Counted from the first letter of the stretch, positions 3 to 48,634 are shown. The stretch: DNA of 64,000 bases from Prorocentrum cordatum (GCA_963575745.1 CAUYUJ010000303.1:248001-312000); one strand, 5' to 3'. Numbers and translations are program-made. Notes: generated by a model from the sequence alone, not told the origin.

Positions 3-1176
3 CAGGGTACCACTACGGGGATCTTCCATTGGATCTCCAAAGTATACCAGCACTTTCTGCTGGAGGGCATAGAAGAGCTGACGACATTCAACAAGGTCTC
101 CATTAATGCCCATCATCCAGCCCTCACAGCGCTCCTATCGTTCGACAGAGACTGTGAGGAACAGCACGGATCACCAGGAATCCATCTTTGGCAGGAGCCG
201 GTGGCAACTCCTGCTGCGCCTGGCCAGGCTGAACCAGGCGCTGCCATGCCCGACGCTCCCGTCGAGATACCACAGGACCCAGGCAGTGTTGCTTCGGCAG
301 CACCAGACCCAGAAACGATAGTGCAGGTCCTGGCACAGCAGAAGAAGCTCGACCGCACGGAGGGTGACAACGAGACTACCCTCCAGGCCGAAGCTGCGCG
401 CATCCGCGCAGAGTTGGCCAAGACTTGCGGGAACCTAGACGTATCGGATATCGGATCGACTGAAAACACTGGATTGCCCGGCGATGGGTTGTCGCTCATT
501 GAGATCCAGGGGGTCGGACGATCGGTCGCTTCCCGTGCCGCCGCCGAGCTTAATCGAGATGCAATGAACCAGCTCGGTCATTCTTGCTTCTGGAGCCGGT
601 GGCAACACCCGCTGGGGCAGCCATGGGGATCTCGTTTCGACCGGGGCCCCTGAGTCACTCCAGCATGACATCCCTCGATGCAGCACTTGCAGTCGCTTCC
701 TGTCCCTGGGCGTTGTTACTGACAATGGCACTCTGTTTGACATATGCTGGCAATACAGCACCTCTGCAGGTGCCACAGGAGTTGGCGGCGCTGGGGCTGC
801 CGACCTTGCGCACCTGCAGGAGCTCAACCAGTGAGTCAGGAACGACCTGTCCCACAACGAGGTGGCCCGCCTCATCGCAGAGTGCACGAAGATCTACACC
901 GGGGGGCAGCGTTCGGCTATCAGTGAGCAGCGTAATAAATTGAGGACAGTGGCGAAGAAGGCCGAGGAGAGGTACAATCGGTGGTGCGATGCGGGTTGCC
1001 CACCTGCCCGCTTTTGCCGGCTCGTGGGAGAGCCCGACGACAACGGCCCATTGTACCACCCCCACCGTAACGTCCTTCAGCGCTTCCTCGATGAATCTCG
1101 ATTCCACCGCCAAATGACCGGAGCCCGTGCGGCTATCGGCAAGGTGCCCTGGACCGAGGATGACATACATGTGTGA
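3..1176 (+). pseudogene. Partial coding remnant of unknown function, truncated by the window start and frameshifted (possibly TE-derived)
   Basis: Frame open from 3 to 653 (QGTTTGIFHWISKVYQHFLLEG...). Overlapping protein-like ORFs at 584-943 and 862-1176 suggest two frameshifts. Followed by a short spacer and a (CA)n tract. No motif recognised. Confidence 0.35.
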
Positions 1177-33889: not shown

Positions 33890-35608
33890 GGGAGTGCTGA
33901 AACCAGCAAATCGCCTGAGACATCCTCCCAAAAACTATCAGAAAACGACAGATGCCCAGCATCATAACTGCCAAACCGCCTGAGACATCCCCGCAACCTG
34001 GGCGCGAACGTCCTCCAAATCTGCTCCGAAAGCGAAACATGTTGGAAGAGAAACTGGCCAAACCGCCCGAGACATCCCCACAAAATCCTGCGAAAGGGGC
34101 CGAGAGAAATACCTCCCCGCCGCTCACCTTAGAGTGTTGAAACCAGCGAATCGCCTGAGACATCCTCCAAATCTGCTCCGAAAGCGAAGGATGTTGGGAC
34201 AGAAAACAAGCAAACCGCTGAGACATCCCCACAAAATCCCGCGAAAGGGGTCGAGTGAAATAACCCCCCGCCGCTCCCCTTAGGAGTGCTGAAACCAGCG
34301 AATCGCCTGAGACATCCTCCAAATCTGCTCCGAAAGCGAAACATGTTGGAAGAGAAACTGGCCAAACCGCCTGAGACATCCCCACAAAATCCCGCGAAAG
34401 GGCCGAGTGAAATAACCCCCCGCCGCTCCCCTTAGGAGTGCTGAAACCAGCGAATCGCCTGAGACATCCTCCAAATCTGCTCCGAAAGCGAAACATGTTG
34501 GAAGAGAAACTGGCCAAACCGCTTGAGACATCCCCACAAAATCCTGCGAAAGGGGCCGAGTGAAATACCCCCCCGCCGCTCCCCTAGGAGTGCTGAAGCC
34601 ACAGAATCGCCTGAGACATCCTCAACATCAGTGTGTGTGTGAGTCATCCGATGAGTGGAAGTGAGTGTAGTGAATGTATGAGTACAAGTACGAGTGAGTC
34701 TGAGTGATGAGTGAGTCTGAGTGATGAGTGAGTCTGAGTGATGAGTGAGTCTGAGTGATGAGTGATGAGTCTGAGTCATGACTGAGTCCGGGTGATGAGT
34801 GAGTCTGAGTGATGAGTGAGTCTGAGTGATGAGTGGGTCTGAGTGATGATCGAGTCTGAGTGATGAGTGAGTGGGTCTGAGTGAGAGGAGTGGTGTGTTC
34901 TCTCTCCTCCGGCGCGGTCCGCCAATAACAAGAACCCCATACTTAGGATATGGGGAACAAGCAAACCGCTTGAGACATCCCCACAAAACGGCCGCGAACG
35001 GGACCGTGGAATACCCCTCGGCGGTTCCCCTAGGGACGTGAAAATGAGCGCCTCGCTCGAGACATCCTCCAAATCTGGTCCGACAGCGAAGGATGTTGGC
35101 ACAGAAAACAAGCAAACCGCTTGAGACATCCCCACAAAACGGCCGCGAACGGGACCGTGCAATACCCCTCGGCGGCTCCCCTTAGGAACGTGAAAATGAG
35201 CGCCTCGCTCGAGACATCCTCCAAATCTGCTCCGAAAGCGAAGGATGTTGGCACAGAAAACAAGCAAACCGCTTGAGACATCCCCACAAAACGGCCGCGA
35301 ACGGGACCGTGCAATACCCCTCGGCGGCTCCCCTTAGGAACGTGAAAATGAGCGCCTCGCTCGAGACATCCTCCAAATCTGCTCCGAAAGCGAAGGATGT
35401 TGGCACAGAAAACAAGCAAACCGCTTGAGACATCCCCACAAAACGGCCGCGAACGGGACCGTGCAATACCCCTCGGCGGCTCCCCTTAGGAACGTGAAAA
35501 GGAGCGCCTCGCTCGAGACATCCTCCAAATCTGTTCCGAAAGCGAAGGATGTTGGCACAGAAAACAAGCAAACCGCTTGAGACATCCCCACAAAACGGTC
35601 GCGAACGG
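33890..35608. repeat. Two arrays of 151-152-bp satellite units (34010-34620 and 34957-35608), each unit with two GAGACATCC motifs
   Basis: Shadow ORFs end at 35030, 35182 and 35334 (152-bp period). Confidence 0.95.
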
Positions 35609-36169
35609 GGCGTGTGTGAGTCTCAGCATGAGTAAGTCTGAGTAGGAGTAGGTCTGAGTATGAGCAGGTCTGAGTATGAGTAATTTTGCGTGTGAGTAAG
35701 TCTGGGTATGAGTAAGTCCGAGTGTGAGTCAGTCTGTGTATGAGTGAGTCTGGGTATGAGGAGGAGAGGGGAGGAGAAGAGGGAGAAGGAGTAGGAGGCG
35801 TCCAAGTAATAACAAGAACCACATCTCAGGATATGGGGAATAAGAGGAAGGCGAAGGAGGAGTAGGAGGCGTCCAAGTAATAATAAGAACCCCATCTTAG
35901 GATATGGGGAAAAATCAGTGAGACCTTCCGTGTTTCGAAGCTGGTGGCCTCTCGGGGCCAGCCTGGGGAGCCCCTCCACGTTGGCCCGAGGTGGTCATGG
36001 AGCTTAGGTCGGGCATGTCCCCCTAGAGGCCGATGTTCGACGAAAAAATTGAAACACTCATAAGATAATTGAAACAGGTTGGAAACATCCGACTTTTTCC
36101 CCAAACAGCTTGCTGAACGGGGTGCTGTTGTGATAGACGCTAACTCTGGCCGAGGGAATTTAAAGCAGA

Positions 36170-37360
36170 GACGTCCTCAACAAAAATTAGTGGTCCGGGC
36201 CGTTTCGCCTGAGACATCCTCGCAACTCTCGTTTCTGAGTTGCCCGGGATTGGGCGTTTCGCGTGAGATATCCTCCAATCTCTGAGTTCCCAGATGCCGC
36301 GCAAGAGGTTGTCTGGCCCGTTTCGCCTGAGACATCCTCGAAACTCTGAACTCCCAGATGCCACGCGAGAGGTGTCCGGACCTTTTCGCCTGAGACATCC
36401 TCCAAACTCATTGAGCTCCCAGATGCCACGCGAGAGGTGGTCCGACCCGTATCGCCTGAGACATCCTCCAAACTCTGAGCTCTGAGATGCCGTGCGCGAG
36501 GTGGTCAGGCGCGTTTCGCCTGAGACATTTTCGCAACGCTGAGTTTTGAGATGCCGCGCAAGAGGGGCCCGGGACAGGCCCCAGGGGTCCCCAGGAGATT
36601 CCCAGGAGGCTCCTAGGAGGCCCCAGGAGGCCCTCTATCAGAACGTGTGAAGTTAATGCACATCCGGTGTCGATTCGTTGATTTTTTCTGCTCTTGTGGC
36701 CCCTCCCCCCCATTTTGGGGGGGCCCAGACGGCCACATGTTAGATGTTCTCCCCTGGGAGCCCCAAGAGGCTTCAGGAAGCCCCAGGTGGGGTCCAGGAG
36801 GCCACAGGAGGCCCAGGAGGAAGCCCCAGGAGGTCCCCAGGAGGTCCCCAGGAGGCCCCAGGAGGCTCCAGGAGGCCCCCGCAACTCGGAGCTCTGAGAC
36901 GCCGCGCTCGAGGTGGCCCTGCCCGTTTCGCCTGAGACTTCCTCGCAGCACGTTTCGCCCGAGACATCGTCGCAACTCTGGGGTCCGAGATGCCGCGCGC
37001 GAGGTGGTCCAGCCTGTTACGCTGGAGACATCCTCGCATCTTTGGGCTCCGAGATGCCGTTCGGAATGAAGAGGTGGAGGAGGAGGAGGAAGAGAAGGAT
37101 CAGGAGATGGAAGGGAGAAGGAGGAGGAGGAGGAGGAGGAGGAGGATGTGGATGAGGGAGCAGGCAGGAGGAGGGGAGGAGGAGAAGGAGGAGGGAGAAG
37201 GAAGGGAGTTGCAGGAGAGGACCTAACAGGAAGCGAGTGTGACGTGGACTTGTCAGAACGTGTGCGAGAGGTTGTCTGGCCCGTTTCGTTTCAGACATTC
37301 TTCCAATACTGAGCTCCAAGATGTCGCTCGCGAGGTGGTCCGGCCCGTTTCGCCTGAGAG
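36170..37360. repeat. About 60-bp gtttcgcctgagacatcctc...gagatgccgcgcgagaggtggtcc repeat family (inverted relics at about 62340-62630; copy at 21336-21420)
   Basis: Directly visible. Confidence 0.85.
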
Positions 37361-38044
37361 TGAGTGCGTCTGCGTAGGAGTGAATCTTAACGAAGAATAC
37401 GGAGACGCAATCGACCTTGGGAACCGCAGTGGGTTTGAGAACCTTGTTTGGGGATACTACACTCCGGCTATAAGTTTTGACTGCTTTTGAATCGTCCTCC
37501 TGTAGAGGGACGTACCCAACTTAACACTGAACCTCCAAAAGGCCCGCCCGACCCGACCCGACCCGCCCGCCAGGGTCCGCCCGCCCGACCCGACCCGACC
37601 GCCCGACCCGACCCACCCGTTAAGGTCCGCCTGCCCGACCCGACCCGAGCCGCCCGCTAAGGTCCGCCCGCCCGACCCACACCGCCCCGTTAGGGCTCGC
37701 GCTTGTTCGCCGGAACGCACCCCAATGTTTAGTGTCCCGCCCGACCCGATCCGACCGTCAGGGTCCGCCCGCCCGACCCGACCCGCCCGTTACGGTTCGC
37801 GCGTGCTTGGTTGAGCGTACCCAACATTTTGATGCCCCGCCCGACCCGAGCCGCCCGCGCCCTTTAGGGTCCGCCCGACCCGACCCGCCTGTTACGGTTC
37901 GCGCATGTTCGATCGAACGCGCCCCACATTCTAGATGTCCCGCCCGCCCGACCCGACCCGCCCGTTGGGGTTCGCCCGCTCGGGTCCGCCCGCCCAGCCC
38001 GACCCGTCTGCTCGGGTCCGACGCCCGACGCCCGACGACGACGA

Positions 38045-38090
<46 letters not shown>

Positions 38091-38404
38091 AACGACGACG
38101 ACGACGACGACAGCGGCGGCGGCGGCGCCAACGGCGATGCCGACGGCGACGACGGCGTCGGCGAAACCAGCGCGGGCGAAAGCAGTCGCCGGCGAAACCA
38201 GCGCCAGCGAAACCATCGCCAGCGAAACTAGCGCCGGCGAAACCAGCGCCAGCGAAACCAGCGCCAGCCAGCGAAACCAGCTCATTCCCCAGCGCACCCG
38301 GGGGGTGCAGCATTCTGACCCGGGACCACCCCCCCACTCCCTGGGACCCGCTGGGGCTAAGTCGGGCCTGTCCTTCTACAGGGGGAATACTCAAAAGATA
38401 GTCT

Positions 38405-38679
38405 TTCTAGGGCTCAGAGGGGGAAGGGGGCCAGCTTACTTTATCCTCTAGAGCTCCCTACAAAGAGTGATGCCACGCCAATGGATATCTACACACGTAT
38501 ATACCGGCCACGCTACAAAGGAGGCGATGCCTCTATGACACAACCTGCAAACATCATCTTTTTTGGTCGCTGACGAGGGGCCAACAGGCCTTAAAGAGCT
38601 GTGTGCACGTGTCTGGATGCAGCTGGGCGGCAGACGACTCGGGCACCTGAGTCCACGGCCCTGCACAGAAACGTCACCA
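38405..38679 (-). repeat. Split direct repeat B2 (3' terminus of the element)
   Basis: Near-identical to 38855-39130. Confidence 0.95.
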
Positions 38680-38722
38680 CGAATAAGACTTTCTCCAACA
38701 CTGCAAGGTGGAGGGGTGGGAG

Positions 38723-38854
38723 GAGCCCAAATGATTACAAAGCAAGGATCGTGCCGTGACAACGTGACGATCGGCAGAGCTGGAGAGGAAGCGGCCACCC
38801 CATACAGACCCCTTTCTAAAGCGAGCCCGGGAAAACATGTTCTGAAAACTCATA
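38723..38854 (-). repeat. Split direct repeat A2 (internal)
   Basis: Matches 45864-45996 (gatcgtgccgtgacaacgtgacgatcggcagagctggagagga...tgaaaactcata). Confidence 0.95.
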
Positions 38855-39130
38855 TTCCAGGGCTCAGAGGGGGAAGGGGGCCAGCTTACTCTATCCCCTA
38901 GAGCTCCCTACAAAGAGTGATGCCACGCCAATGGATATCTACACACGTATATACCGGCCAGGCTACAAAGGAGGCGATGCCTCTATGACACAACCTGCAA
39001 ACATCATTTTTTCTGGTCGCTGACGAGGGGCCGCAAGGCCTTAAAAGAGCTGTGTGCACGTGTCTGGATGCAGCTGGGCGGCAGACGACTCGGGCACCTG
39101 AGACCAGGGCCCTGCACAGAAAAGTCACCA
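38855..39130 (-). repeat. Split direct repeat B1 (internal, abuts A2)
   Basis: Near-identical to 38405-38679. Confidence 0.95.
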
Positions 39131-39172
39131 GCCCTGGAGAGAACGCATGTCTGGGGTCTGGCGTCAGCCGCA

Positions 39173-40351
39173 TCACTTTCCTTTCTGTCTGCGCTTCTGA
39201 CGCTTGACTCGGGCACTCCGATCAGATCTCCGAGGCTCTTCCTGCACCGCTGGCGTGCAGGACGGTGGGTCGGTCTCAGGACGGGCGCCAGGACGATCGA
39301 TCATCTTCTTGAGCTGCAGCGCCATGGCGGACCTCAGGGACCCGTCGCTGTCCTGCGGCGCCATTTCGAGAGCGTCCAAGAGGCCCTTCACCGGGTCGTC
39401 CCAGAACTCCTTGCCCCGCTTGGCTACGTCCTCGCCTGCCTGCGCTCGATGCCGAACGAGGTCGTGCAGCATTGTGTATCGCTGCACGGCCGCCGCGGAC
39501 CTCCAGCGACCGCGACGTCGGGTGGCCTCGAGCGTGAAGCCGCTCTCCACGTAGTCCGACGCGCCCGAGTGGCGAAGCCCGTGCGGAGGTCCGCACCACT
39601 CAAGGCCCGACGCCGCCAGGGCCTCCCACCATCTCTTGCGGAAGGTGGCCGGCGTGAGGGGGAACACCAGATCCCCGTCCGCCGCGACGTCCACCGCGGC
39701 CTGCAGGAGGGCCATCACGAAGCCGAGCCTCACGATCACCCCCTGGTCGCTGCCCGTCTTGACCGTCTCGCCACGAGCCCGAACGCCAAGGGCCAGACTT
39801 GCGCTCACTCCATCAAAATGCATGTCCTCTGTCCGCAAGAGGCTCCAGTCCTGCTCCCTCATGCAGCAGTCGAAAGACAGCAGCACCAAGATGGATTCGT
39901 ACAGCCTCCCGTGGTGGATCATCCAAAGTGCTATGCAGCCGATCGTCGCGCGAGCCAACGGCTTGCCCTCGCCCTGCGCAGCCATTCTCAGCCACGACTT
40001 GAGGGCTCGCGCCGCCTGCGGCATCCTGTCGCGGTGATCCTCGTAGACGTGCAGGAACCCGAAGAAGACGGCGTCGCCCACGCCGACGCTGGACCGGTGA
40101 AGGTAGCACAGCGAGGACAAGTAGTTGGCCATGGCCGTGCCCCACTCGGCATACGTGTCGAAGGGCGCCTGCCCTCGCTCCACGCCCTGCAAAAAGTTCC
40201 GAACTTCCTTGACGTAGCGCCTGTTGGCGTTGTCGTCGACTGCGTGGACGCACAGGCGCTTGGCCAGCTGCGCCCGAATAGAGGCGGCGTGGCCCCGCGC
40301 TCGGGCCCCCCTCCCTGCCGACGGAGGCGGGGTCCCGCCCCTCCACCTGGT
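39173..40351 (-). CDS. Tyrosine recombinase of the retroelement (start codon uncertain; frame open back to 40351)
   Basis: Catalytic R (CMREQD), K (ETVKTG), HxxR (HGLRH), W (RGRW) and Y (VQRY); overlaps the 3' end of pol. Confidence 0.92.
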   Translation of the reverse strand, partial: TRWRGGTPPPSAGRGARARGHAASIRAQLAKRLCVHAVDDNANRRYVKEVRNFLQGVERGQAPFDTYAEWGTAMANYLSSLCYLHRSSVGVGDAVFFGFLHVYEDHRDRMPQAARALKSWLRMAAQGEGKPLARATIGCIALWMIHHGRLYESILVLLSFDCCMREQDWSLLRTEDMHFDGVSASLALGVRARGETVKTGSDQGVIVRLGFVMALLQAAVDVAADGDLVFPLTPATFRKRWWEALAASGLEWCGPPHGLRHSGASDYVESGFTLEATRRRGRWRSAAAVQRYTMLHDLVRHRAQAGEDVAKRGKEFWDDPVKGLLDALEMAPQDSDGSLRSAMALQLKKMIDRPGARPETDPPSCTPAVQEEPRRSDRSARVKRQKRRQKGK

Positions 40352-43300
40352 CTAGCTCGCGCCAGCCCTCTCCTCGACGGCTCGCCCAGCCTCGGCACCA
40401 CTGGCGAGCTGCGCCACGATCGCGACGAGGGTCGCCAGTGGATGGCATCGTGCTCGCCGCCCTGGCCCCGCAGCCGCCTGAAGGCCGCTCGCGGGGTGGG
40501 CAGCCCCCGAGCGAGGTGGCCCTGGACGGCGTCGGCCGCGGCGCCCGTGGATCCCCCTCGGGACGGACCGCCCGCAACGTTCGACTCGGAGGGAACCCAG
40601 CGCAGGCACAGCCTGATCCCGCAGGCGAGCTGGACCGCGGCCGCCATCCTGCATAGTCGCAGCAGCTGGTGCGAAGACGCCCTGCCCTTGCCGAGGGCGC
40701 CGACCACCGCCAGCGAGTCCGTGAAGCCCCGGACGCAACGAGTCCACGAGCGACTGCTCCGGGCCAGGTGGCGCAGCACCGCCAGCGCGCCTCTGCCCTC
40801 CAGTGCGTTGTTGTGCTCGGCCCGCCCCCACTGGCCTGCGGAAGCGGTGGCCCAACGATCGGGGTCGAGCCGCTCCGCCTGCAGGGGCGGCGCGGGCTGC
40901 TTCGCCGCTCGCCTCAGGTGCTGAGGCAGGGGCCGAAGGACTCCAGGCGGCGCGGCGGCTCGGGCCACCTCCACGATGGCCTCGCAGAGGGCCTGCGGGC
41001 ACGGGCAGGCCAGCTTCGTCCACTTCGTTCCGCACGCCGCGTCGCCTCGCAGGATCTGGTGCGGTAGCCCCGTCGCTGAGCAGCGCGAGGACGCGCCCGT
41101 GCACCTCCTTGCGACCATCAGCAGCTCCCGACACGACGTCAGGATCTTCGTGGGCTTCTTCCAGGACGTGCTTAATTGGCAGTAGTCGACCTCCAGCGCG
41201 CAGACGCCGCCCCTGCCGGCAAGCGCCTGCATCTCGGGCAGGAGCCAGATGAGGCTGTCGATCGGGTTCTCCAGCGCGAAGAACACTCCCGGCGTCGGCG
41301 CAAGCAAGCACGCCTCGATCGCGACCAGCGCCATCAGCGAACCGCCCTTCACTTTCCTGCGGTCCGCCCTCCCAAGACCCGGGACCCCCCACAAGTGGGA
41401 AGGCGTCCGAAGCCTCGGAGTCCTGGCTCGCGAGAAGGTGGAGCACGGCGGACCTGCGAGGATCCACCAGAACTCGCCCTTCCTGAGCTTCAGCATCAGC
41501 CTCGCGATGGCGGGCTGGTGCAACAGGTCGAACTGGGGCCCGTTGTCGATCTCGCCTGCCTCGGCCCAGGTAGGAACCCCCACGCGGAAGCACTCGGCCA
41601 GAGCGCCCGCCCCAACGAAGAGCTCCGCCATGCTGGGACGACCCGTCACTCTGAAGCCAGTCGCCGCATCCGCGTTCTCTTGGAACAGGTCGCCCTTCGA
41701 GCGCTCCTGCCGCTCCTGCTCCGAGCACGCCGTGTCCACCTGCACCCCCCAGCCCTGATGTCGGGCCCACTTGGCCTCGGACCTGAGCGCATCGGGCGCC
41801 GCCGCCGTCGACGTCACCACGCAGCCGCAGTTGCCGGCATCCGTCATGCGCGCCTGCGAGTGCCAGCCCAGCGACAAGTCCGAGCAGAAGAACACGGAGA
41901 GCGCGGCCAGGCCGCGCAGCTCGGTGATCACGTCCGCCCACAGCCGCCGCGGACGAAGACGGTCCTCGGCAGGTGGGTCCACGCGTAGATGACGCGCGGG
42001 ATGGCGAAGGCCGCGCGCGCGCGAGCATCGTGGCCCACGCCCAGTGCCCCATGACGACCTCGACCAGCGCGGGCGAGGCCACCTCCTCCAGGGTGAGGGC
42101 CTCGGCAGCGAGCACCAGGTCCTTCAGCTTCTCGTCCTTCACGCGAGACCTCAGGGAGACCGGGTCGATGGTGACTCCTAGCTGTTCGGGAAGACCGACT
42201 CCTTGGCTCTCCTTGTGCACTGCCAGACCGCGCGATGTCACCGCGCTCCTCGCCCGACCTGCCACTTCGTCGAGCCCCGGGTCGTCCGATCCTTCGCCGA
42301 TCAGATCTCCGCCATAGTCGTCGACGTAGAGCCAGTACAAAAGCTGGTGTTCGGCGAAGCTCGGGGCGGGGCTGCCGTGCTCCACGCGGCCCGCCCCCTC
42401 GGACCCTAGGTCGTCGAAGCAGTCCATCAGCGCGGTGCGCGCGAGGAAGACCGCCCAACTCCAGCCCATGGGGGCGACCGCGCAGGCGATTCCGACGGCC
42501 CCCCCTGGCGGCCGCGGCAGCGATGCGCCTCGCTGCTGTGCGAACTCTCAGAGGGGGCACGGATCCACCCCATCCAAAACAAAGTAGGAGTACAGCTCGG
42601 GAATCTTCTGCAGCCTGTAGAACATCACTGGCACGCCCCCTTGGAACGTCAGGAACTGCTGGCCCCCCAGGATGTCGGGCCCGAGGTCGATCTCCGCGAG
42701 CGCCGCAGGCGAGCCCAGCGAGACCCAGGGATGGTCTCTGAAGTGCAGGTTGACTCGGCTGGCATCCCACACCAACCGAGACAACACCTCCCGCTTTGCC
42801 TTTTCCTGCGACACCTTCTTGACCACGGTGAAGACTGACAGCTTCTCGCGCGCGTCGTCCACGTAGGTGGGCATGTTCGATTCCCACATATTCAGCGCGA
42901 GCTCCAGCCTGGTCTGCCCGTGCTTGAGCTCCGGCGCCTCGTACGGTATGATCTTGTTGTAGGCTTGCATGTCGATCTCGCCCTCCGACTTCAACATCAG
43001 CCTCCCGGGCTCTTCGAGGTAGGCCTTCGCCGTGACAACCAGCTTCTTCGCGCTGACCCCTCGGGGCCCCTTCGGAGGCATATCGACTTCGTTGACCCGC
43101 AGCGGACACAGGGCACCCCTCTGCAGTCGCTCCCCCCCTTCCCTCTCCGAGGCAGAGCCGCTCCCATAGCCAACTGGAAGCTCCTCGCCAAAGCAGCGCA
43201 AAACCGCTCTGCCGTCGTCGGTGGATCCCCAGGTCGCTCTCCGACTCTGCTCGTTCCATATCCTCCTGACGATCTCCTTCTGCAAAAACGAGGCCTGGCT

Positions 43301-43555
43301 CCAGGGGCACTCCGTCGCCACCTTGGTCCAGTCCTTCAGCTCCTTGAGGTGGCTTCGGCTCAGACTCGGGAGAGCAGCAACGGTCCGACACGACCTGAGC
43401 CACGTGACCCGCAGCTTGCCCTCGCTCATCCCCCCGCCGATAGCTCCGCCCCAACTCGCCGGCGCATAAGGCAACGTTCCAAGCAGGTCTCGATGTTGCC
43501 GAGGTCGCCCCGAACCAAGCCCGGGGGGCCCCCTGCCCTGGTCCCCGCCTGACAT
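39988..43555 (-). pseudogene. pol: reverse transcriptase, then RNase H with a nested MTase; frameshifts at about 42550-42500 and 42010-41980
   Basis: RT motifs FTVVKK, RLVWDASRVN, PMGWSWA and YVDD (42317-42328). RNase H motifs TDA (41836-41844), HNNALE, TDS and WVPSESN. Confidence 0.9.
40955..41631 (-). CDS. C5 cytosine DNA methyltransferase-like domain, in frame within RNase H
   Basis: Motif I ELFVGAG, FDLL, motif IV AGPPCSTFS (GPPC 41443-41454), motif VI FALENP (ENP 41263-41271), C..WKKPT, and motif X-like CPQALCEAIV. Confidence 0.85.
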
Positions 43556-44697
43556 CTAAACGACGAACTGGTGCGCGACCTGGCCGAGAGGGCACGTGCA
43601 AAAAAGCCCTCCCGTCGTCAAAGTCGAAACTGTTGAGCACAGGCTCTGGTTCGCGGTCGCTCAAGTGGGCGGACAACGCTGAGCCCTCGAGACCAAGAGC
43701 ACGCGCAGAGCTGCCAACCACAGACGATGAAGTAGAACACCAAGTGCTCCAGGTAGAAAGGTCGATGACGAGCACGCCCAACAAGAGCACCACGAAGAGA
43801 GTCCTGACGAGAGAGGACCTCGACCGATGCACGGGTGGTTTGTCGGCTTTGAACCGCCCCCCCACCAAGGGGCGGCTAGACCTTCACTCGTCCTTCGCGG
43901 CAGACTCCGAGACTGACCCCAAGTGCTTCTGGAAGAGCGCCTCCCTCTTGAGCTTCTCGGTCACCTCGTCGTCCGCCGCGTCGATGTCGTTCTCGGAGCG
44001 GTCGAGACGGGAGTACTGCTCAGCCAGCGCCCAGTCGACGTTGCTCCGCCAATTGGCCCCCGTCTGATTCTATGGGCGCAGCCAGTCCTCGCGCCGCTGC
44101 ACCTTGTCGAACGCCTCGTCAGGCTGTAGATGCGGAGGCAGATCAGCTCCGCCGTTCGTGAGTTGATCACGGTGCCCGGCGGGCCCGTCTCGAGCATACA
44201 TGGTCGGGGACCGTACCCATGACCGTGACCTCCGCCGCCGCGCTGCAACTCTCGAGCTCCTTGCTGCGCAGCCACTCACGCAGCTCCGCCTGCGCCGTGC
44301 GGTCACTCCTGTAGAGACGTGTCAACACCTCAGGAGCGACGCGAGTGCGGACCTCCCCCACGCCCACCACTTCAAAGCCGCCGCCCGAGGAAGGGGACGG
44401 CGAAGGTGCTGACGATCCACTCCCTCGTGTAGCCCGTGAGCTGTCCATCTCGACGATCATCCCGTGCTCTCGGAGCTTCCGCAGTAGTGTATCGATCTGA
44501 CCCCGCGATGGCTCGATGAACTCCTCCTCGCGCCTCGAATTGGCTGTGTCGGACCGACTCGATCTCGGAGAACGCGGAGTCGTGGCGCGGTCGCCCGTCT
44601 CGAAGCGCACGCCGCCAGAGGGACCCCCAGGAGGAGTAGCCTTCAACTCTCGGATCTAGTCAGCAAGCAGCGGCATCTGCTCCTGTCCCGTCAAGAT

Positions 44698-44862
44698 TCA
44701 GAGCGCGAATTACCTACCCCGCTTTCGCTTCCAGGCAAAACCAAGCCATACCACGCGCCTCCTCGTCAAGCGGCGAGAGCAGTACAGGCTGCAATTTGGC
44801 ATCGTTTGGTATCTCTTGGAAGCGAGGGTGGGCAAAAGCGAGGTAGGTTTGTTTTCCCCTTA
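44698..44862. mobile_element. 165-bp MITE with degenerate TIRs (about 31 bp) and 5-bp TSD AAGAT
   Basis: AAGAT at 44693-44697 and 44863-44867; acctacc.cgcttt.gc at the same offset from each end; excision restores ELMRTILTGQEQ. Confidence 0.8.
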
Positions 44863-44995
44863 AAGATGGTCCGCATCAGCTCCGTGGAGGTCGGCTCCTC
44901 ACCCGAGCCGGTGTCCGAGGCCGCGGTGCCCTTGGCCCGCACGTCGCCGCCTTCGCTGCCCGACCCGTCGTAGTCCGACCCCGCGTCAGCCGAGC

Positions 44996-45176
44996 CTGGG
45001 TAGTCGAAGGCCAAACTGTCGGATTGGATTGGGCCCCAGGGGCCAATCTGGCCCGGCCAAACTGGATAATTTGGGTTATTCGCCAGACTGGATTCGCGTT
45101 GGTTCCCTCGCCAGATTGCCCCCGTTTGCCAGATAGGGCCTGCCAGATTGGCGCCAGATTGGTTTCGACTACCCAG
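44996..45176. mobile_element. 181-bp MITE with TIR CTGGGTAGTCGAA and 5-bp TSD CGAGC
   Basis: Perfect 13-bp TIR extending imperfectly to about 24 bp; CGAGC at 44991-44995 and 45177-45181. Confidence 0.88.
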
Positions 45177-45863
45177 CGAGCTGGCGCTGGCGTACAATCC
45201 CCATATGACGAGGCCGCCGATGCCAAGGGCGATCGAGTAGAAGCCCAGCTCGCCCGCCTCGTGCATCTCGAGCATGCTGCTCTGGATGTCGCCGAAGTGC
45301 TCGAGCCACTTCCCCGCCCTCCTGGTTCGTGTGCTACGCGGCCTTCAGCCACTCGCACACCCCCGGGCAGTGCCAGAGCCGCCAGAAGACCACGGCTGAT
45401 CCCGCCATAGGCCCCCGGCTCCGACGAGCCCAGGCCCACAGTCCAGCAGCCGTCATCGCCTCGACAGCCCCGAACTTCGGGAAGAGCGAGAGTCGCTTGC
45501 CTCCGCCCTTCTTCGGTCCAGGCTTCTTGGGGGCTGTCTTGGTGACTCCGTTCATCCTGTCGATCAGCCTGGCGCTCGCCTGCTTGGCCTCCTGCTTGTC
45601 ATGTGCGCAGCTCCGCGACCTCCTCGACGTCAGTGCCTTCGTCCAGCACCAGCCGATCCTGGAGGCCCAGGAGCACGCACACTACCCAGAAGAACGTGGT
45701 GCCCCGCCACACCGCCGTGGTGGCGCTGAGGGCACCGCCCTGCGGCCGAAGCCCGCGCGAAGTGCGCCAGCTGGGCGCAGCTGCGCCCCAACGCCGAGGG
45801 CGATGGGCGCTCGCGGGCCCTCGGGAGGAGGCGCGGGCGCTGGCCACGAGCCTCGAATCCCTC

Positions 45864-45996
45864 GAGCCCAAGTGACTACAAGCCAAAGATCGTGCCGTGA
45901 CAACGTGACGATCGGCAGAGCTGGAGAGGAGGAAGCGGCCACCCCATACAGACCCCTTCTAAATCGAGCCCGAGAAAGAATTTTTGAAAACTCATA
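45864..45996 (-). repeat. Split direct repeat A1 (5' terminus of the element)
   Basis: Matches 38723-38854. Confidence 0.95.
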
Positions 45997-46915
45997 GGGG
46001 GCGTTGTTTTTACTATTTTTTGAGTTTTTTGGGAAAATTTGGTGGGTATTTGTATGTTTCGTCTAAAATCTGCCTGCAGCGGGACATGCCCGACCTAGCG
46101 CTGGGGCCCCGGGGGAAGGCTGCATTCTGATTGGGAGCTCCCCACCACCACAGGCGGGGCCTTCCCCTGGACCCCCGCGGGCGACCCCCCGGGGACCCGC
46201 CGAGATTTGGGGGGGGGGGGGGGGCAGCATTCTGACCAGGACCCCCTCCCGCGCCCCCCCATGCCCCTCGTCAGGGGAGGGGGAAGAGGGAATGGCATCG
46301 ATTCAGGTACGACGTTTATTCTCTTGCACAGCTGTGTCCGGGAGCTCGGGCCTCTTTGTTTTCGTCGTCGTTCGTTCGTTCGCCGTTCGTCCTCCCCCCT
46401 GGCCGTCCTGTCCCTGCCCTGGACTCCTGGACCCAGCCCTCCCCAGCTCCCCTCGCTCTCCCCCTGGCCGCCCCCTCTGGCCTTGCCCGCTGTGTTCTGC
46501 AGCTCGAACGCCTCTCCGGAAGGAAGGGGGCAGGAGCCTCCTGCCCCTCGCGGCTCCCTGGTGCAAGAGCCAGGGCACGCGCGCCGCTTGCTTGTACTCC
46601 AGATTTCGTAATAAAGGGAGGGGGGTCTCATTTCGGGGCGGGTCTCTTCCAGGCTATCTTGGAGGGCCTGGGGGGTCTGGGGACGATGTTTTGGAGGGTT
46701 CTCCCACGGGGGGGGTCTGAAATGGAAGTCTGGGGACATGTTTTAAAACAGTACTGTTTAAAACATGTTGGGAGTATTTCTTGAGTATGTTTAATGTGTC
46801 GCCCAAGATCCGCCTGTAGGGGGACATGCCCGACTTAACTTTTGGGCGATCTTGCGGCCGTAAGGACCCATCGAACGGGGGAAAACGACACAACCCAAAT
46901 CAGTGAGATCTTCCG

Positions 46916-46966
46916 TCCGCAGCCACTTTGGCTCAAGGCATTTTCGGATCAAGTTTGCCGCCCAAG
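46916..46966 (+). other. DinoSL relic (20/22) plus older relict SL(s)
   Basis: tccgcagccactttggctcaag + gcattttcggatcaag + tttgccgcccaag. Confidence 0.9.
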
Positions 46967-47035
46967 GCAAACGCCGAAAACTACACACATGTTGATACCT
47001 TCAGACCTCATTTCGTACAAGTTCGGATCGGGCTG

Positions 47036-48634
47036 ATGAGCATGCTAGTGAAACTCGCCACCGCGTTTTTGGCAGTCTCAGGGGCAAACGGGAAGGACTT
47101 CGACTCCTGCCTGATGCAGATGGCTGCAAGCCCGACTCAGGCTACAACCGTCGAGCGGCCACTCGCGGATACCTATGTTCAGTCCTGCCAGTCAACGAAT
47201 TATGGTACCCAGCAGGTGTTGGTCAACAAGCGCTACTCCGACGGCTGGTGCGGCACTCGATACTCGTTCTTGCAATTCAGCGTTCCTTGCGATGCTCAGG
47301 ATGCAACGCTCCTGCTGTGGCCGACTGACTATCCTGCTGGTACCTTTCCAAAGGTGGCCGTCTTCACGGTGCAGAACGCGTGGTCGGAAAGCACCACTAT
47401 TTGGTCCAACCACCCTGGCTGGCAGGAGCAGGTTTGCGATTATCAGACATACCCAGGCCCAGTCGGGCAGGCGTTCGCATGCACCGTTCCACAGGCGAAA
47501 CTCGCCGGTAAGAACACCATCTCGTTTGCGTTGGTTGCAGAATGGATGTGGGCGGGGGGCAGTAGTTTTTGGTCTCGCGAAGCCCTCGACGAGAGCACCA
47601 GACCGTCGCTGGTGTTCCACTGTCCTACTGCAGCACCCACGACGGCCCCGACGAGCAGCCCGACCTCGTCCCCGACGCCCAGTCCGACGAGCAGCCCGAC
47701 AAGCAGCCCGACCTCCAGTCCGACCGCGTCCCCGACGTCCAGTCCGACGAGCAGCCCGACCTCCAGTCCGACCGCGTCCCCGACGTCCAGTCCGACGAGC
47801 AGCCCGACCTCCAGTCCGACCTCGTCCCCGACGCCCGGCCCGACGCCTTCGCCGACTGCGGCCCCGACGAGCAGCCCGACGAGCAGCCCGACCTCCAGTC
47901 CGACCGCGTCCCCGACGTCCAGTCCGACGAGCAGCCCGACCTCCAGTCCGACCTCGTCCCCGACGTCCAGTCCGACACCTTCGCCGACTGCGGCCCCGAC
48001 GAGCAGCCCGACCTCTAGTCCAACCGCGTCCCCGGGCCCGACGTCAAGTCCGACGAGCAGCCCGACCTCCAGTCCGTCCTCGTCTTTCCCAGGGACGGTG
48101 GCGACGAGTTCGGCCGTTGGCGATCCCCATATGAAGAATGTATACGGCGAGCGTTTTGATTTGATGGCGCCAGGCAACCATGTTCTTATCAACATCCCTC
48201 GTGGAGAGCGCGCTGAAAAAGCATTGCTTCGCGTGCAGGCCGATGCACGCCGATTGGGTAAACAGTGCACGGATCTATATTTCCAAGATTTGAACGTGAC
48301 CGGATCTTGGGCAGAGGCAGAACAAGTCGGAGGTTTTCATTACAGCGCATCGCAGAGCGAGGTTGAGGTTCCTAAGTGGGTTATTTTTGGTAAGATAGAG
48401 CTGAAGGTCGTTCGCGGGCATACGGACGGCGGCACGTCGTACTTGAACGTGTACGTCAAGCATTTAGGCCGAGCTGGGTTTGCTGTCGGAGGTCTTCTAG
48501 GCGAGGACGACCACAGCAACGCGAGCACGCCAGAGGCTGGGTGCGTGGAACTTGTGAATCTACAGGATCTGCAAACGCTTCGGACTGGCAGTGGCTACCG
48601 ACCGGTCTCGACTGCAGAGGCAACATACGCTTAA
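47036..48634 (+). CDS. Intact intronless secreted protein (532 aa): signal peptide, DNRLRE/CBM96-like beta domain, (PTSS/PTAA)n mucin-like linker, C-terminal GDPH (VWD-like) domain
   Basis: MSMLVKLATAFLAVSGANG signal; ADTYV...TNYG...RYSFLQF...ATLLLW...[30 protein letters not shown]. The ORF track starts it upstream at a TTG inside the SL. Confidence 0.85.
   Translation: MSMLVKLATAFLAVSGANGKDFDSCLMQMAASPTQATTVERPLADTYVQSCQSTNYGTQQVLVNKRYSDGWCGTRYSFLQFSVPCDAQDATLLLWPTDYPAGTFPKVAVFTVQNAWSESTTIWSNHPGWQEQVCDYQTYPGPVGQAFACTVPQAKLAGKNTISFALVAEWMWAGGSSFWSREALDESTRPSLVFHCPTAAPTTAPTSSPTSSPTPSPTSSPTSSPTSSPTASPTSSPTSSPTSSPTASPTSSPTSSPTSSPTSSPTPGPTPSPTAAPTSSPTSSPTSSPTASPTSSPTSSPTSSPTSSPTSSPTPSPTAAPTSSPTSSPTASPGPTSSPTSSPTSSPSSSFPGTVATSSAVGDPHMKNVYGERFDLMAPGNHVLINIPRGERAEKALLRVQADARRLGKQCTDLYFQDLNVTGSWAEAEQVGGFHYSASQSEVEVPKWVIFGKIELKVVRGHTDGGTSYLNVYVKHLGRAGFAVGGLLGEDDHSNASTPEAGCVELVNLQDLQTLRTGSGYRPVSTAEATYA

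What the first reader, a model, noticed from the sequence alone, without database searches (positions are those of the whole stretch)
40555..41850. C5 DNA methyltransferase inserted inside the RNase H domain of a tyrosine-recombinase retrotransposon
Seen: in one uninterrupted minus-strand frame (ORF 39988-41982) the first RNase H acidic motif (TDAG, 41833-41844) is separated from the rest (HNNALE about 40798-40815, TDS 40714-40722, WVPSESN about 40579-40599). Between them lie about 225 aa with ordered C5-MTase motifs: ELFVGAG, GPPC, ENP, C..WKKPT and CPQALCEAIV. Known: DIRS-order elements often carry an adenine-MTase-like domain after RNase H, and cytosine MTases have been reported in dinoflagellate retrotransposons. 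Inference: this is a domain-in-domain insertion rather than a tandem fusion, with KKPT where canonical motif VIII has RxR. That would tether methylation to the enzyme clearing RNA from nascent cDNA, so the circular intermediate could be methylated before YR integration (host mimicry or self-protection). I do not know whether this nesting has been described.
Basis: partly seen in the sequence, partly recalled or inferred. Interest (0 to 1): 0.92.

Follow-up and report, generated by a model that had tools for sequence, protein, structure and literature searches.

The report
Methyltransferase-like domain nested inside retrotransposon RNase H
A decayed copy of a dinoflagellate-type jumping gene carries a cytosine-methyltransferase-like domain spliced into a surface loop of its RNase H enzyme, an arrangement shared by many relatives that adds an unusual variant to the known methyltransferase-carrying retrotransposons.

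Summary
All the motifs sit at the stated coordinates, in one open minus-strand frame.

The locus is a 7.6-kb DIRS-like tyrosine-recombinase retrotransposon (38405-45996, minus strand) with A-coding-B-A-B repeats. An AlphaFold2 model (pLDDT 85.3) shows two folds:
- Residues 112-351 match DNMT3B/3A (Z 12.5) and M.HhaI (Z 10.9).
- Residues 39-472, skipping that insert, match a whole RNase H1 (Z 12.0, 116 of 133 residues, rmsd 2.6 Å).

Among 171 relatives, 25 complete and 14 partial proteins share the nested order. A sister family (78 complete, 24 partial) has a contiguous RNase H with a floppy loop at the same site and the same methyltransferase module at the C-terminus. The catalytic Cys and Glu of the methyltransferase and the RNase H DEDD residues are conserved across both families.

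Caveats:
- This copy is broken: an in-frame TGA, a frameshift, and the fourth RNase H Asp replaced by Gly.
- The methyltransferase domain falls below Pfam thresholds, and its activity is untested.
- DNMT-carrying DIRS elements in Symbiodinium are already published. I found no description of the nesting.

Verdict: new variant of a known kind.

The parts
45864..45996 (-). Terminal repeat A1, at the 5' end of the element in its own orientation
   Evidence: 89% identical over 135 nt to 38723-38854 (families D14 and D18)
40531..43555 (-). Pol coding region (RT, then RNase H with the nested methyltransferase-like domain), broken in this copy. ATG at 43553-43555, in-frame TGA at 42548-42550, net frameshift between 42017 and 41970.
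   Evidence: tblastn of the intact relative P0001: residues 21-523 map to 43501-42017 (frame -1) and residues 537-1030 map to 41970-40531 (frame -2). Stop codon and YVDD located.
42317..42328 (-). RT active-site motif YVDD
   Evidence: Translation of frame 43555-40352; aligned with the Y/F-x-DD column of relatives in A1
41743..41895 (-). RNase H N-module (residues 30-80 of the 476-aa stretch): strand beta1 with the first catalytic Asp (TDAG, D48), strand beta2, a short helix and a mini-strand
   Evidence: AF2 secondary structure E39-49, E54-60, H63-70, E78-80, with pLDDT 90-96. RNase H1 superpositions start at model residues 28-42. The module HMM hits the region just upstream of the RNase H C-module in 78 tandem-family proteins. 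D48 is invariant in 26/26 nested and 57/57 tandem proteins.
40930..41649 (-). Nested C5-cytosine-methyltransferase-fold domain (residues 112-351): motif I ELFVGAG, motif IV GPPC, motif VI ENP, WKKPT in place of motif VIII, and a short Cys/His-rich target-recognition region
   Evidence: VIA-align: DNMT3B 6u8p_A Z 12.5, rmsd 3.7, 193 aligned; DNMT3A 4u7t_C Z 12.5; M.HhaI 10mh_A Z 10.9. All listed Foldseek top hits are DNMT3A/3B/DNMT1/MET1/Dnmt2. Profile-to-PDB hits are weak but almost all C5-MTases. Motif conservation.
40555..40890 (-). RNase H C-module (residues 365-476): beta3, helix A with E395 (HNNALE), beta4 with D422 (TDS), two helices, beta5 (RWVPS). The fourth catalytic Asp is replaced by Gly (NVAGG, G471).
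   Evidence: AF2 secondary structure. BLASTP to P0008 626-738, E 2e-22. E395 36/36 and D422 36/36 in nested relatives; position 471 is D in 35/36 nested and 92/93 tandem relatives but G in the window.
39173..40351 (-). Tyrosine recombinase ORF (392 aa stop-to-stop) with the HGLRHSGA and GRW motifs
   Evidence: Pfam Phage_integrase, E 1.5e-08, 35.1 bits against a cutoff of 27.1. Motifs located. The same Pol-then-YR order is seen in the intact relative L001.
38855..39130 (-). Repeat B1
   Evidence: 95% identical over 276 nt to 38405-38679
38723..38854 (-). Repeat A2 (internal copy of A)
38405..38679 (-). Repeat B2, at the 3' end of the element

Best explanation
The locus is one full-length but decayed copy of a DIRS-like (tyrosine-recombinase) retrotransposon of dinoflagellate type, on the minus strand at 38405-45996. 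Its layout is A1, Pol, YR, B1, A2, B2.

The Pol polyprotein is RT followed by an RNase H. The excursion between strands beta2 and beta3 of that RNase H has been expanded by about 280 residues, which include a compact C5-cytosine-methyltransferase-fold domain of about 240 residues. The RNase H still folds as one domain around the insert. The first catalytic Asp comes from the piece upstream of the insert; the Glu, Asp and Asp come from the piece downstream.

This nested order defines an old, diverse family. A sister family keeps the same three modules in tandem order: RNase H N-part, RNase H C-part, spacer (in some members the recombinase), then the methyltransferase module.

Most likely mode of action (inferred, not shown): in intact copies the domain uses SAM and its conserved motif-IV Cys and motif-VI Glu to methylate cytosines of the element's own cDNA while it is still held by the RT/RNase H polyprotein. 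The circular intermediate would then be methylated before the recombinase integrates it. This is what de Mendoza et al. 2018 proposed for SymbioDIRS-Dnmt3.

The window's own copy can no longer do this. It has an in-frame TGA and a frameshift in Pol, and it has lost the fourth RNase H Asp.
For: Element:
- Phage_integrase hit, E 1.5e-08.
- A-coding-B-A-B repeats.
- RT YVDD motif.
- The intact relative L001 has the same order, nested Pol followed by YR.

Nesting:
- AF2 model, pLDDT 85.3, with the N-module at pLDDT 90-96.
- RNase H1 chains superpose over model residues 39..472 with 116 residues aligned of a 133-residue chain, Z 12.0, rmsd 2.6 (4e19_A), and 120 of 140, Z 11.3 (3u3g_D). The C-terminal piece alone (365-476) has only 112 residues and begins at beta3.
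- Control: the contiguous RNase H of the tandem-family protein P0008 matches the same chains with 122-125 residues aligned, Z 13.3-13.9. It has the same order of secondary-structure elements and a low-confidence loop at the insertion site.
- Module HMMs run over 171 proteins give 25 N-MT-C, 12 MT-C, 2 N-MT, 78 N-C-MT and 24 C-MT. The N-module HMM, built from nested members only, hits tandem members a median of 53.5 residues upstream of their C-module, with median i-E 7e-10 in that 171-sequence set.
- RNase H D48, E395, D422 and D471 are invariant or nearly so in both families.

Methyltransferase fold:
- DNMT3B and DNMT3A Z 12.5, M.HhaI Z 10.9.
- The 50 listed Foldseek rows are all DNMT3A/3B(/3L complexes), DNMT1, MET1 or Dnmt2.
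- 26 of 26 and 21 of 24 weak profile-to-PDB hits are C5-MTases, with motifs I to IV aligned.
- Motif IV Cys: 23/29 nested, 86/95 tandem, 18/18 other. Motif VI Glu: 24/29, 94/95, 18/18. Motif I F-x-G is conserved.

Single origin: nested and tandem proteins separate on one branch in the RNase H tree (SH-aLRT 68) and in the concatenated tree (SH-aLRT 89).

Host lineage:
- Named relatives come from Symbiodinium and Durusdinium.
- There are four DinoSL-like matches in the window against 0.16 expected (the motif was recalled from memory).

Published precedent: the isolated SymbioDIRS-Dnmt3 DNMT domains methylate CG de novo in yeast (PMC5890265, passages read).
Against: - Pfam finds no DNA_methylase in the window ORF at E<=1, in 16 relatives at E<=0.01, or in 8 named or gene-model proteins at E<=0.01. 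Only 6 of 48 members give weak hits, the best at E 0.022.
- phmmer against PDB sequences gave nothing. Profile hits are not significant on their own (best E 0.0082, DNMT2) and cover only motifs I to IV.
- Motif VIII (QxRxR) is replaced by W-x-K-x-T. Motif X is not canonical. Several nested-family members have LHLFSGxRRxGD in place of the glycine-rich loop.
- Generic Rossmann dehydrogenases score Z 8.4-9.7 against the same region, so the margin of the methyltransferase match is moderate.
- I could not inspect coordinates or PAE, so strand pairing between the two RNase H pieces is inferred from superposition ranges and aligned lengths.
- No activity, expression or methylation data exist for this family.
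- CpG observed/expected in the element is about 1.0, which gives no sign of methylation-driven decay either way.
- The methyltransferase-only tree needs two changes of architecture rather than one.
Confidence: 0.75

Rival explanations
1. The architecture is as described, but the nested domain is not a DNA cytosine methyltransferase in function. It would instead be an RNA m5C enzyme (Dnmt2-like, acting on the template RNA or a primer tRNA), or a non-catalytic nucleic-acid-binding or scaffold module that only keeps the fold.
For: - The best sequence-level PDB matches are DNMT2/tRNA m5C enzymes (E 0.02 and 0.0082).
- Motif VIII arginines are absent and motif X is non-canonical.
- Motif I is degenerate in part of the nested family.
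- The domain is below Pfam thresholds.
- The tested SymbioLINE-Dnmt did not methylate DNA in yeast, and its authors raised RNA methylation as an explanation (PMC5890265, passage read).
Against: - The structural best matches are DNMT3B/3A (Z 12.5), against Dnmt2 at Z 10.1 and 8.8.
- The catalytic Cys and Glu are kept in most members across about 30% identity, which argues for catalysis.
- The SymbioDIRS-Dnmt3 domains are active on DNA (PMC5890265), although identity with this family is unproven.
Confidence: 0.2
2. This is simply a member of the published SymbioDIRS-Dnmt3 elements, one of whose two published domain orders places the DNMT between RT and the Pfam RNase_H hit. The finding would then be already known apart from the unremarked detail that two RNase H strands lie upstream of the DNMT.
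For: The paper describes A-coding-B-A-B repeats, a DNMT within Pol alongside RT and RNase H, a separate recombinase ORF, and two coexisting structures with different domain orders and shuffled recombinase/Pol order (PMC5890265, section 6 read). I see two such families: nested with YR downstream, and tandem with YR between RNase H and the methyltransferase module in P0116 and P0172. Relatives occur in Symbiodiniaceae. The best structural match is DNMT3.
Against: - The published elements were found through PF00145 and cluster inside the Dnmt3 clade.
- This family gets no PF00145 hit at E<=0.01 in any of the 34 proteins scanned at that threshold.
- No DNMT3 appears among its sequence-profile PDB hits.
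- I could not see the paper's Figure 1e or its supplementary figures: the file was too large, and only three other supplementary files could be searched as text.
Confidence: 0.35
3. The nesting is an artefact: a second transposon or gene fragment landed inside this copy's RNase H, or the region is misassembled.
For: The copy is decayed and lies in a repeat-rich region.
Against: The same in-frame order N-MT-C is found in 25 complete and 14 partial proteins that are only 27-48% identical to the window and come from several independent sources. It is also found in an intact ORF on the metagenome contig L001. Both RNase H pieces keep their catalytic residues in these relatives.
Confidence: 0.02
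4. The domain is the usual DIRS adenine (Dam-like) methyltransferase, misread as a cytosine enzyme.
For: Canonical DIRS1-type Pol proteins carry a Dam-like domain after RNase H (stated in PMC5890265, and in the abstract and passages of bioRxiv 10.64898/2026.05.21.726589). The tandem sister family has its module at the same C-terminal position.
Against: - No Pfam Dam-family hit was listed. MethyltransfD12 matched 1 of 48 members at E 0.24.
- The motif order I-IV-VI, with P-C and E-N-P, is that of C5 enzymes.
- All top fold matches are C5 enzymes.
Confidence: 0.03

Closest known systems
SymbioDIRS-Dnmt3 retrotransposons of Symbiodinium (de Mendoza et al. 2018, Nat Commun 9:1341, PMC5890265)
   Same: - DIRS-like element with A-coding-B-A-B repeats.
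- A cytosine-methyltransferase-fold domain in the Pol polyprotein together with RT and RNase H.
- A tyrosine recombinase.
- Two coexisting domain orders.
- A Symbiodiniaceae host range.
- The proposed role of methylating the cDNA before integration.
   Different: The published domains are PF00145-positive and fall in the Dnmt3 clade. The domain here is below Pfam thresholds, has W-x-K-x-T instead of QxRxR, and has a short Cys/His-rich recognition region. In the parts of the paper I read (section 6, legends, passages), nothing says that the DNMT interrupts the RNase H fold. I did not see the figures.
Canonical DIRS1/PAT-like elements with RT-RNase H-(Dam-like) MT (Goodwin and Poulter 2004, as cited in PMC5890265; bioRxiv 10.64898/2026.05.21.726589)
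   Same: A tyrosine recombinase retrotransposon with split or inverted terminal repeats, and a methyltransferase carried in the Pol polyprotein. The tandem sister family places its module after RNase H, as DIRS1 does.
   Different: The methyltransferase here has a cytosine-C5 fold, not the Dam adenine type. In the window's family it lies inside RNase H rather than after it.
DNMT3A/DNMT3B catalytic domains (PDB 4u7t, 6u8p) and bacterial M.HhaI (10mh)
   Same: The fold matches: Z 12.5 for DNMT3B (193 aligned) and DNMT3A (200 aligned), and Z 10.9 for M.HhaI (204 aligned). Motif I F-x-G-x-G follows beta1, the P-C loop follows beta4, and E-N-x sits at the end of beta5. The recognition region is short, as in DNMT3.
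   Different: Identity is 11-13%. Motif VIII arginines are absent, motif X is non-canonical, and there are extra conserved Cys/His residues (C268, C294, H308, C333). No Pfam membership, and no regulatory domains.
Cellular and retroviral type-1 RNase H (for example Halobacterium RNase H1 4e19, human RNase H1 2qk9, HIV-1 RT RNase H)
   Same: A complete five-stranded fold with the DEDD residues in the family. Z is 10-12 for the split domain and 11-14 for the contiguous sister-family domain.
   Different: The beta2-beta3 connection is an excursion of about 75 residues in the sister family. It carries a whole methyltransferase-fold domain in the window's family.

Membership tests
DIRS-order (tyrosine-recombinase) retrotransposon | Encodes a tyrosine recombinase instead of a DDE integrase | tested here: met
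   Pfam Phage_integrase, E 1.5e-08, 35.1 bits against a cutoff of 27.1, in ORF 39173-40351. HGLRHSGA and GRW motifs present.
DIRS-order (tyrosine-recombinase) retrotransposon | RT and RNase H in a Pol ORF | tested here: met
   YVDD at 42317-42328. Collinear tblastn with the intact Pol P0001. RNase H fold Z 12.0. Pfam RVT_1 and RNase_H are themselves not reached in the window.
DIRS-order (tyrosine-recombinase) retrotransposon | Unusual terminal repeats (inverted repeats with an internal complementary region, or split direct repeats A1-B1-A2-B2) | tested here: met
   A1 45864-45996 matches A2 38723-38854 (89%). B1 38855-39130 matches B2 38405-38679 (95%). The order in element orientation is A, coding, B, A, B.
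Type-1 RNase H fold | Five-stranded mixed sheet with helices that superposes on solved RNase H | tested here: met
   4e19_A: Z 12.0, rmsd 2.6, 116 aligned, model range 39..472. 3u3g_D: Z 11.3, 120 aligned. This rests on a predicted model, not a solved structure.
Type-1 RNase H fold | Four carboxylates (D, E, D, D) | tested here: not met
   The window copy has D48, E395 and D422 but G at position 471. Relatives have D there in 35/36 nested and 92/93 tandem proteins. The family meets this feature; this copy does not.
C5 cytosine methyltransferase (Pfam DNA_methylase PF00145 / DNMT) | Reaches the Pfam gathering score | tested here: not met
   No hit at E<=1 in the window. 0 of 34 relatives at E<=0.01. 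6 of 48 at E<=1, best 0.022.
C5 cytosine methyltransferase (Pfam DNA_methylase PF00145 / DNMT) | Fold of the catalytic domain | tested here: met
   DNMT3B Z 12.5 (193 aligned), DNMT3A Z 12.5, M.HhaI Z 10.9, MET1 Z 10.4. Foldseek top E 5.3e-06, and all 50 listed rows are DNMTs.
C5 cytosine methyltransferase (Pfam DNA_methylase PF00145 / DNMT) | Motif I F-x-G-x-G, motif IV P-C (catalytic Cys) and motif VI E-N-V (Glu), in that order | tested here: met
   ELFVGAG, GPPC and ENP at residues 120-126, 177-180 and 238-240. Cys kept in 23/29, 86/95 and 18/18 relatives; Glu in 24/29, 94/95 and 18/18. The motif names and roles are from established knowledge of M.HhaI-type enzymes (recalled).
C5 cytosine methyltransferase (Pfam DNA_methylase PF00145 / DNMT) | Motif VIII Q-x-R-x-R and motif X G-N-x-V | tested here: not met
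   W-K-K-P-T at 274-278, with K276 kept in 23/29 and 93/95 and T278 in 24/29 and 93/95. The C-terminal helix carries (Y)P-x-x-L-C instead of GN-V. The canonical motif strings are recalled.
C5 cytosine methyltransferase (Pfam DNA_methylase PF00145 / DNMT) | SAM-dependent transfer of methyl to cytosine C5 | not testable with these tools
Published activity exists only for the SymbioDIRS-Dnmt3 domains (PMC5890265).
SymbioDIRS-Dnmt3 | DIRS-like structure with a DNMT in Pol, in Symbiodiniaceae | tested here: met
   named relatives.
SymbioDIRS-Dnmt3 | DNMT domain detectable as PF00145 and placed in the Dnmt3 clade | tested here: inconclusive
   PF00145 is not reached. The best structural match is DNMT3, but by a small margin.
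DIRS Dam-like adenine methyltransferase domain | Sequence match to a Dam-type or D12-type N6-adenine methyltransferase | tested here: not met
   Only 1 of 48 members matched MethyltransfD12, at E 0.24, and no Dam-family hit was listed. Fold matches are C5 enzymes.

The most novel reading that the evidence does not exclude
The nested domain belongs to a large, Pfam-invisible lineage of C5-methyltransferase-fold modules that dinoflagellate retrotransposons of at least three classes have recruited: DIRS-like (tandem and nested), Copia-like and LINE-like. In the nested DIRS lineage the module and RNase H would form one composite unit. That unit would methylate the nascent cDNA strand on, or immediately after release from, the RNA:DNA hybrid, so the placement itself would be functional and not just tolerated.
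Probability: 0.2. Interest if true: 0.8.

Novelty: new variant of a known kind. Interest (0 to 1): 0.58.

Why it matters
Retrotransposons that carry their own cytosine methyltransferase invert the usual picture of methylation as a host defence. So far they are known from a few lineages, all found through Pfam DNA_methylase.

This locus shows two new things:
- Such a domain can be threaded into a loop of RNase H without destroying either fold. This is a rare natural case of domain insertion into a retroelement catalytic domain, and a natural experiment on how tolerant RNase H is to insertion.
- A very large family of these modules (5510 database relatives of the query stretch at E<=0.001) escapes standard domain annotation. 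Surveys of transposon-encoded DNMTs in dinoflagellates may therefore be undercounts.

If the module is active, it gives a concrete enzyme to test the idea that cDNA is methylated before integration.

Tried and rejected
- Own-genome search: no genome is held for this window, so I could not count genomic copies or build a copy consensus.
- tblastn of the six element ORFs against the window found only themselves, so there is one copy in the window.
- phmmer of the stretch against PDB sequences gave 0 hits at E<=10.
- The search for homologous proteins gave little: 4 hits and 3 hits, because only the 8000 candidates sharing most words were scored. Only the alignment query gave named relatives.
- The listing of cluster members gave no source names for 10 clusters.
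- Supplements of PMC5890265: the supplementary-figure file was too large to read. The three readable files (peer-review file, a small PDF, a spreadsheet) contain nothing on domain order. I therefore could not see the published architectures or motif alignments.
- The search for related loci: alignment A1 had no sufficiently conserved stretch, and A3 matched no relative. Only P0145 as query returned loci, 3 of them.
- The look-up of sequencing runs returned one marine-metagenome DNA run holding 0.07 of the sampled words, and no RNA holder was listed. I did not lay it, so nothing follows about expression or about whether the stop and frameshift are real.
- The search of earlier findings returned nothing for this place.
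- CpG observed/expected is 0.98 in the element and 0.82 in the flanks. I draw no conclusion on methylation from this.
- ESM Atlas: the nearest clusters carry no common Pfam family, and one is automatically named a DNA (cytosine-5-)-methyltransferase family protein, score 0.95. This is a lead only.
- Four literature searches found no description of a methyltransferase nested in RNase H.
- Rejected readings: a TE-in-TE or assembly artefact, a Dam-like adenine methyltransferase, and a complete RNase H lying downstream of the insert. See the rival explanations.
Full report
**1. Observation**

The minus strand holds a stop-to-stop ORF at 39988-42123 (711 aa). Every motif is at the stated position:
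- TDAG 41833-41844
- ELFVGAG 41605-41625
- GPPC 41443-41454
- ENP 41263-41271
- WKKPT 41149-41163
- CPQALCEAIV 40972-41001
- HNNALE 40798-40815
- TDS 40714-40722
- WVPSESN 40579-40599

The stretch is not a chance ORF of GC-rich DNA. A full HMMER scan of 1.84 billion representative proteins gave 5510 relatives at E<=0.001, 1605 at E<=1e-10 and 83 at E<=1e-30. The best was P0001 (E 7.3e-91, 42% identity, query 17-476 in one piece).

**2. The element**

Self-comparison of 38000-47000 shows two repeat pairs:
- 38405-38679 matches 38855-39130 (95%).
- 38723-38854 matches 45864-45996 (89%).

Read on the minus strand, this is A1, coding, B1, A2, B2. That is the arrangement given for DIRS-like elements of Symbiodinium in PMC5890265 (legend of Fig. 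1e, read).

The coding part is as follows:
- Pol starts at the ATG at 43553-43555. It contains YVDD at 42317-42328.
- A 392-aa ORF at 39173-40351 matches Pfam Phage_integrase (E 1.5e-08, 35.1 bits, cutoff 27.1). This was the only Pfam family found at E<=0.1 in six ORFs of the element.

The copy is decayed:
- The intact relative P0001 aligns in two frames. Residues 21-523 map to 43501-42017 and residues 537-1030 map to 41970-40531, so there is a net frameshift between 42017 and 41970.
- The first frame holds a TGA at 42548-42550.
- Several conserved positions are changed in the window: G50 for Ser, C328 for Tyr, and above all G471 for the fourth RNase H Asp.

The window holds only this one copy, and no genome was available.

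**3. What the insert is**

Standard sequence tools are nearly blind here:
- Pfam gives no DNA_methylase, RNase_H or RVT hit in the window at E<=1.
- No DNA_methylase hit at E<=0.01 in 16 relatives, 8 named or gene-model proteins, or 10 further polyproteins.
- Among the 48 members of alignment A2, 6 give weak PF00145 hits (best E 0.022) and 10 give weak hits to the hepadnaviral RNase H model (best 2.5e-4).
- A profile of A2 against PDB sequences gave 26 hits at E<=10. All 26 are C5 methyltransferases (DNMT2, DNMT1, M.HaeIII, a prophage enzyme), with motifs I to IV aligned, but the best E is 0.02.
- A profile built mainly from proteins that carry the methyltransferase module alone or with the RNase H C-part (A5) gave 24 hits, 21 of them C5 enzymes, best E 0.0082 for DNMT2.

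The fold is clearer. An AlphaFold2 model made with 48 sequences has mean pLDDT 85.3.
- Foldseek against the PDB lists only DNMT3A/3B (and complexes), DNMT1, MET1 and Dnmt2 among its 50 shown rows. The top E is 5.3e-06, and 95 matches have E<=0.001.
- The Foldseek-independent aligner places model residues 112-351 on DNMT3B (6u8p_A, Z 12.5, rmsd 3.7, 193 aligned), DNMT3A (4u7t_C, Z 12.5), M.HhaI (Z 10.9, 204 aligned), MET1, Dnmt2, DIM2 and others.
- Generic Rossmann dehydrogenases follow at Z 8.4-9.7 in the same list.

The motifs sit where a C5 enzyme has them (motif roles are recalled knowledge of M.HhaI-type enzymes):
- F-x-G-x-G after the first strand.
- P-C after strand 171-176.
- E-N-P at the end of strand 234-240.

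Differences from canonical C5 enzymes:
- W-K-K-P-T takes the place of Q-x-R-x-R.
- The last helix carries (Y)P-x-x-L-C.
- The recognition region is short, with conserved C268, C294, H308 and C333.

**4. Is it nested?**

The same model answers this.
- RNase H1 of Halobacterium (4e19_A) superposes with Z 12.0, rmsd 2.6 and 116 aligned residues of a 133-residue chain, over model range 39..472.
- LC11 RNase H1 (3u3g_D) gives 120 aligned residues, Z 11.3.
- Every RNase H row in the list (human RNase H1, B. halodurans, HIV-1, foamy virus, HERV-K, MLV, CaMV) starts at model residues 28-42 and ends at 472-476.

The piece downstream of the insert has only 112 residues (365-476), and by the model's secondary structure it begins at beta3. 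So the first two strands must come from residues 39-60, which carry TDAG and have pLDDT 90-96.

Homology gives independent evidence. I cut three module profiles out of the nested-family alignment and ran them over all 171 proteins held at that point:

| Module order | Proteins |
|---|---|
| N-C-MT | 78 |
| N-MT-C | 25 |
| C-MT | 24 |
| MT-C | 12 |
| MT only | 21 |
| C only | 3 |
| N-MT | 2 |
| N-C | 2 |
| MT repeated | 1 |
| none | 3 |

In the 78 tandem proteins the N-module lies a median of 53.5 residues (range 29-122) upstream of the C-module, with median i-E 7e-10 (E-values are for this small set). In the 25 nested proteins the N-to-C distance is a median of 303 residues (277-372).

As a control I modelled the contiguous RNase H of the tandem protein P0008 (pLDDT 89.9, pTM 0.82).
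- It has the same order of elements as the window model.
- It has a poorly ordered loop between two mini-strands exactly where the window's family carries the methyltransferase domain.
- It matches the same RNase H1 chains (3u3g_D Z 13.9, 125 aligned; 4e19_A Z 13.3, 122 aligned).

The split domain therefore aligns almost as many residues as the unsplit one.

The four RNase H carboxylates are conserved on both sides of the insert:
- D48: 26/26 nested and 57/57 tandem.
- E395: 36/36 and 92/93.
- D422: 36/36 and 93/93.
- Position 471 is D in 35/36 and 92/93.

I could not inspect coordinates or PAE. Direct strand pairing is therefore inferred.

**5. Family and history**

The nested order is not peculiar to the window.
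- It is present in proteins 27-48% identical to the window, from ENA, JGI and Logan sources.
- It is present in an uninterrupted 939-aa ORF on the metagenome contig L001, followed by a recombinase ORF as in the window.

In trees of 74 proteins that have all three modules (24 nested including the window, 50 tandem; rows whose modules were less than about 80% covered were dropped):
- The two architectures separate on one branch in the RNase H tree (SH-aLRT 68).
- They also separate on one branch in the concatenated tree (SH-aLRT 89).
- The methyltransferase-only tree needs two changes.

This fits one rearrangement, of unknown direction, with the module co-inherited since then.

In the tandem family the spacer between RNase H and the methyltransferase module has a median of 425 residues. 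It matches the window's recombinase in P0116 and in both element copies inside P0172. In P0008, P0011, P0013, P0045 and P0055 no recombinase was detected in that frame.

Host lineage:
- Named relatives come from Symbiodinium sp. CCMP2592, S. microadriaticum, Symbiodinium sp. KB8 and Durusdinium trenchii.
- The window has four matches to a dinoflagellate spliced-leader motif against 0.16 expected (the motif was recalled from memory).

**6. Mechanism**

Shown:
- The fold, the motif order, conservation of the catalytic-type Cys and Glu, and a single RNase H fold built from two separated pieces.

Inferred:
- In intact copies the domain methylates cytosines of the element's cDNA while the cDNA is held by the polyprotein, before recombinase-mediated integration.
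- This is the hypothesis of de Mendoza et al. 2018 for SymbioDIRS-Dnmt3, whose isolated DNMT domains methylate CG in yeast (passages read).

Nesting is not required for tethering, since the sister family has the module in the same polyprotein. Whether the position in RNase H adds coupling to hybrid processing is open. An RNA-directed or non-catalytic role remains possible (about 0.2).

**7. Comparison and novelty**

The closest known system is SymbioDIRS-Dnmt3. It shares the repeats, a DNMT in Pol, the recombinase, two domain orders and the host group.

It may be the same family. However, the published domains were found as PF00145 and fall in the Dnmt3 clade, whereas this family is invisible to PF00145 and has no DNMT3 among its sequence-profile hits. 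I could not see the paper's figures or supplementary figures.

Four full-text searches and the passages I read in PMC5890265, bioRxiv 10.64898/2026.05.21.726589 (abstract and passages) and PMC12344493 (passages) contain no statement that a methyltransferase interrupts RNase H.

I rate it a new variant of a known kind, with interest 0.58. It is a real, conserved and structurally unusual domain insertion, and a large unannotated methyltransferase-like family. The general phenomenon is published, the function is untested, and this copy is dead.

Noticed in passing
Relatives P0174, P0175, P0183-P0185, P0189-P0193 (not in the window): The methyltransferase module HMM also hits long polyproteins of other retrotransposon classes.
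- Copia-like P0175: Pol_BBD, rve, SH3_retrovirus, the MT module at 1602-1854 (i-E 2e-38), then RVT_2.
- P0184, P0185, P0191 and P0193: the MT module lies upstream of RVT_2.
- 'Copia protein [Durusdinium trenchii]' P0189 and 'RE1 [Symbiodinium sp. KB8]' P0192 also carry the module.
- LINE-like P0174 and P0183: Exo_endo_phos, with the MT module at the C-terminus (i-E 7e-42 in P0174).
- P0190 combines zf-CXXC with the MT module.
None gets PF00145 at E<=0.01. PMC5890265 states that Symbiodinium Copia elements lack a DNMT domain. Some of these gene models may be chimeric.
   Followed up: partly
Window 14067-14081, 25259-25273, 46923-46937, 60881-60895 (+ strand): There are four matches (one exact, three with one mismatch) to a 15-nt core of the dinoflagellate spliced leader, against 0.16 expected by shuffling. 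The match at 46923 lies at the start of a long plus-strand ORF (46907-48634) that encodes Thr/Ser/Pro repeats. This suggests relict spliced leaders of retroposed genes. The motif was recalled from memory.
   Followed up: no
Window 36190-37360 and 37540-38010: Next to the element's 3' end there are degenerate tandem arrays: units spaced about 64 nt apart (families D3, D4, D6), GC-rich units (GCCCGACCCGAC-like; D5, D7, D12), and a (GAC)n microsatellite at about 38000-38190 (D2). ORF translations at 34432-35825 also show a peptide repeat with a period of about 152 nt.
   Followed up: no
Window 39988-40530 (minus strand): Homology to Pol of relatives ends near 40531, but the frame stays open for another 540 nt, to 39988. 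It overlaps the start of the recombinase ORF (40351 downward) in a different frame. Either the original Pol stop was lost, or the two ORFs overlap as in some DIRS elements.
   Followed up: no
Relatives P0116, P0172, P0194, P0008: In the tandem family, the spacer of about 425 residues between RNase H and the methyltransferase module is the tyrosine recombinase, in the same ORF, in P0116 and P0172. P0194 has a contiguous RNase H followed by Phage_integrase and no methyltransferase module. In P0008-like proteins the spacer is low-complexity with no detectable recombinase, so it may be an overlapping frame. I had no DNA to check this.
   Followed up: partly
Window 38405-45996 versus flanks: The element is more GC-rich (0.654) than its flanks (0.566 and 0.569). 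Its CpG observed/expected is 0.98 against 0.82 in the flanks.
   Followed up: no
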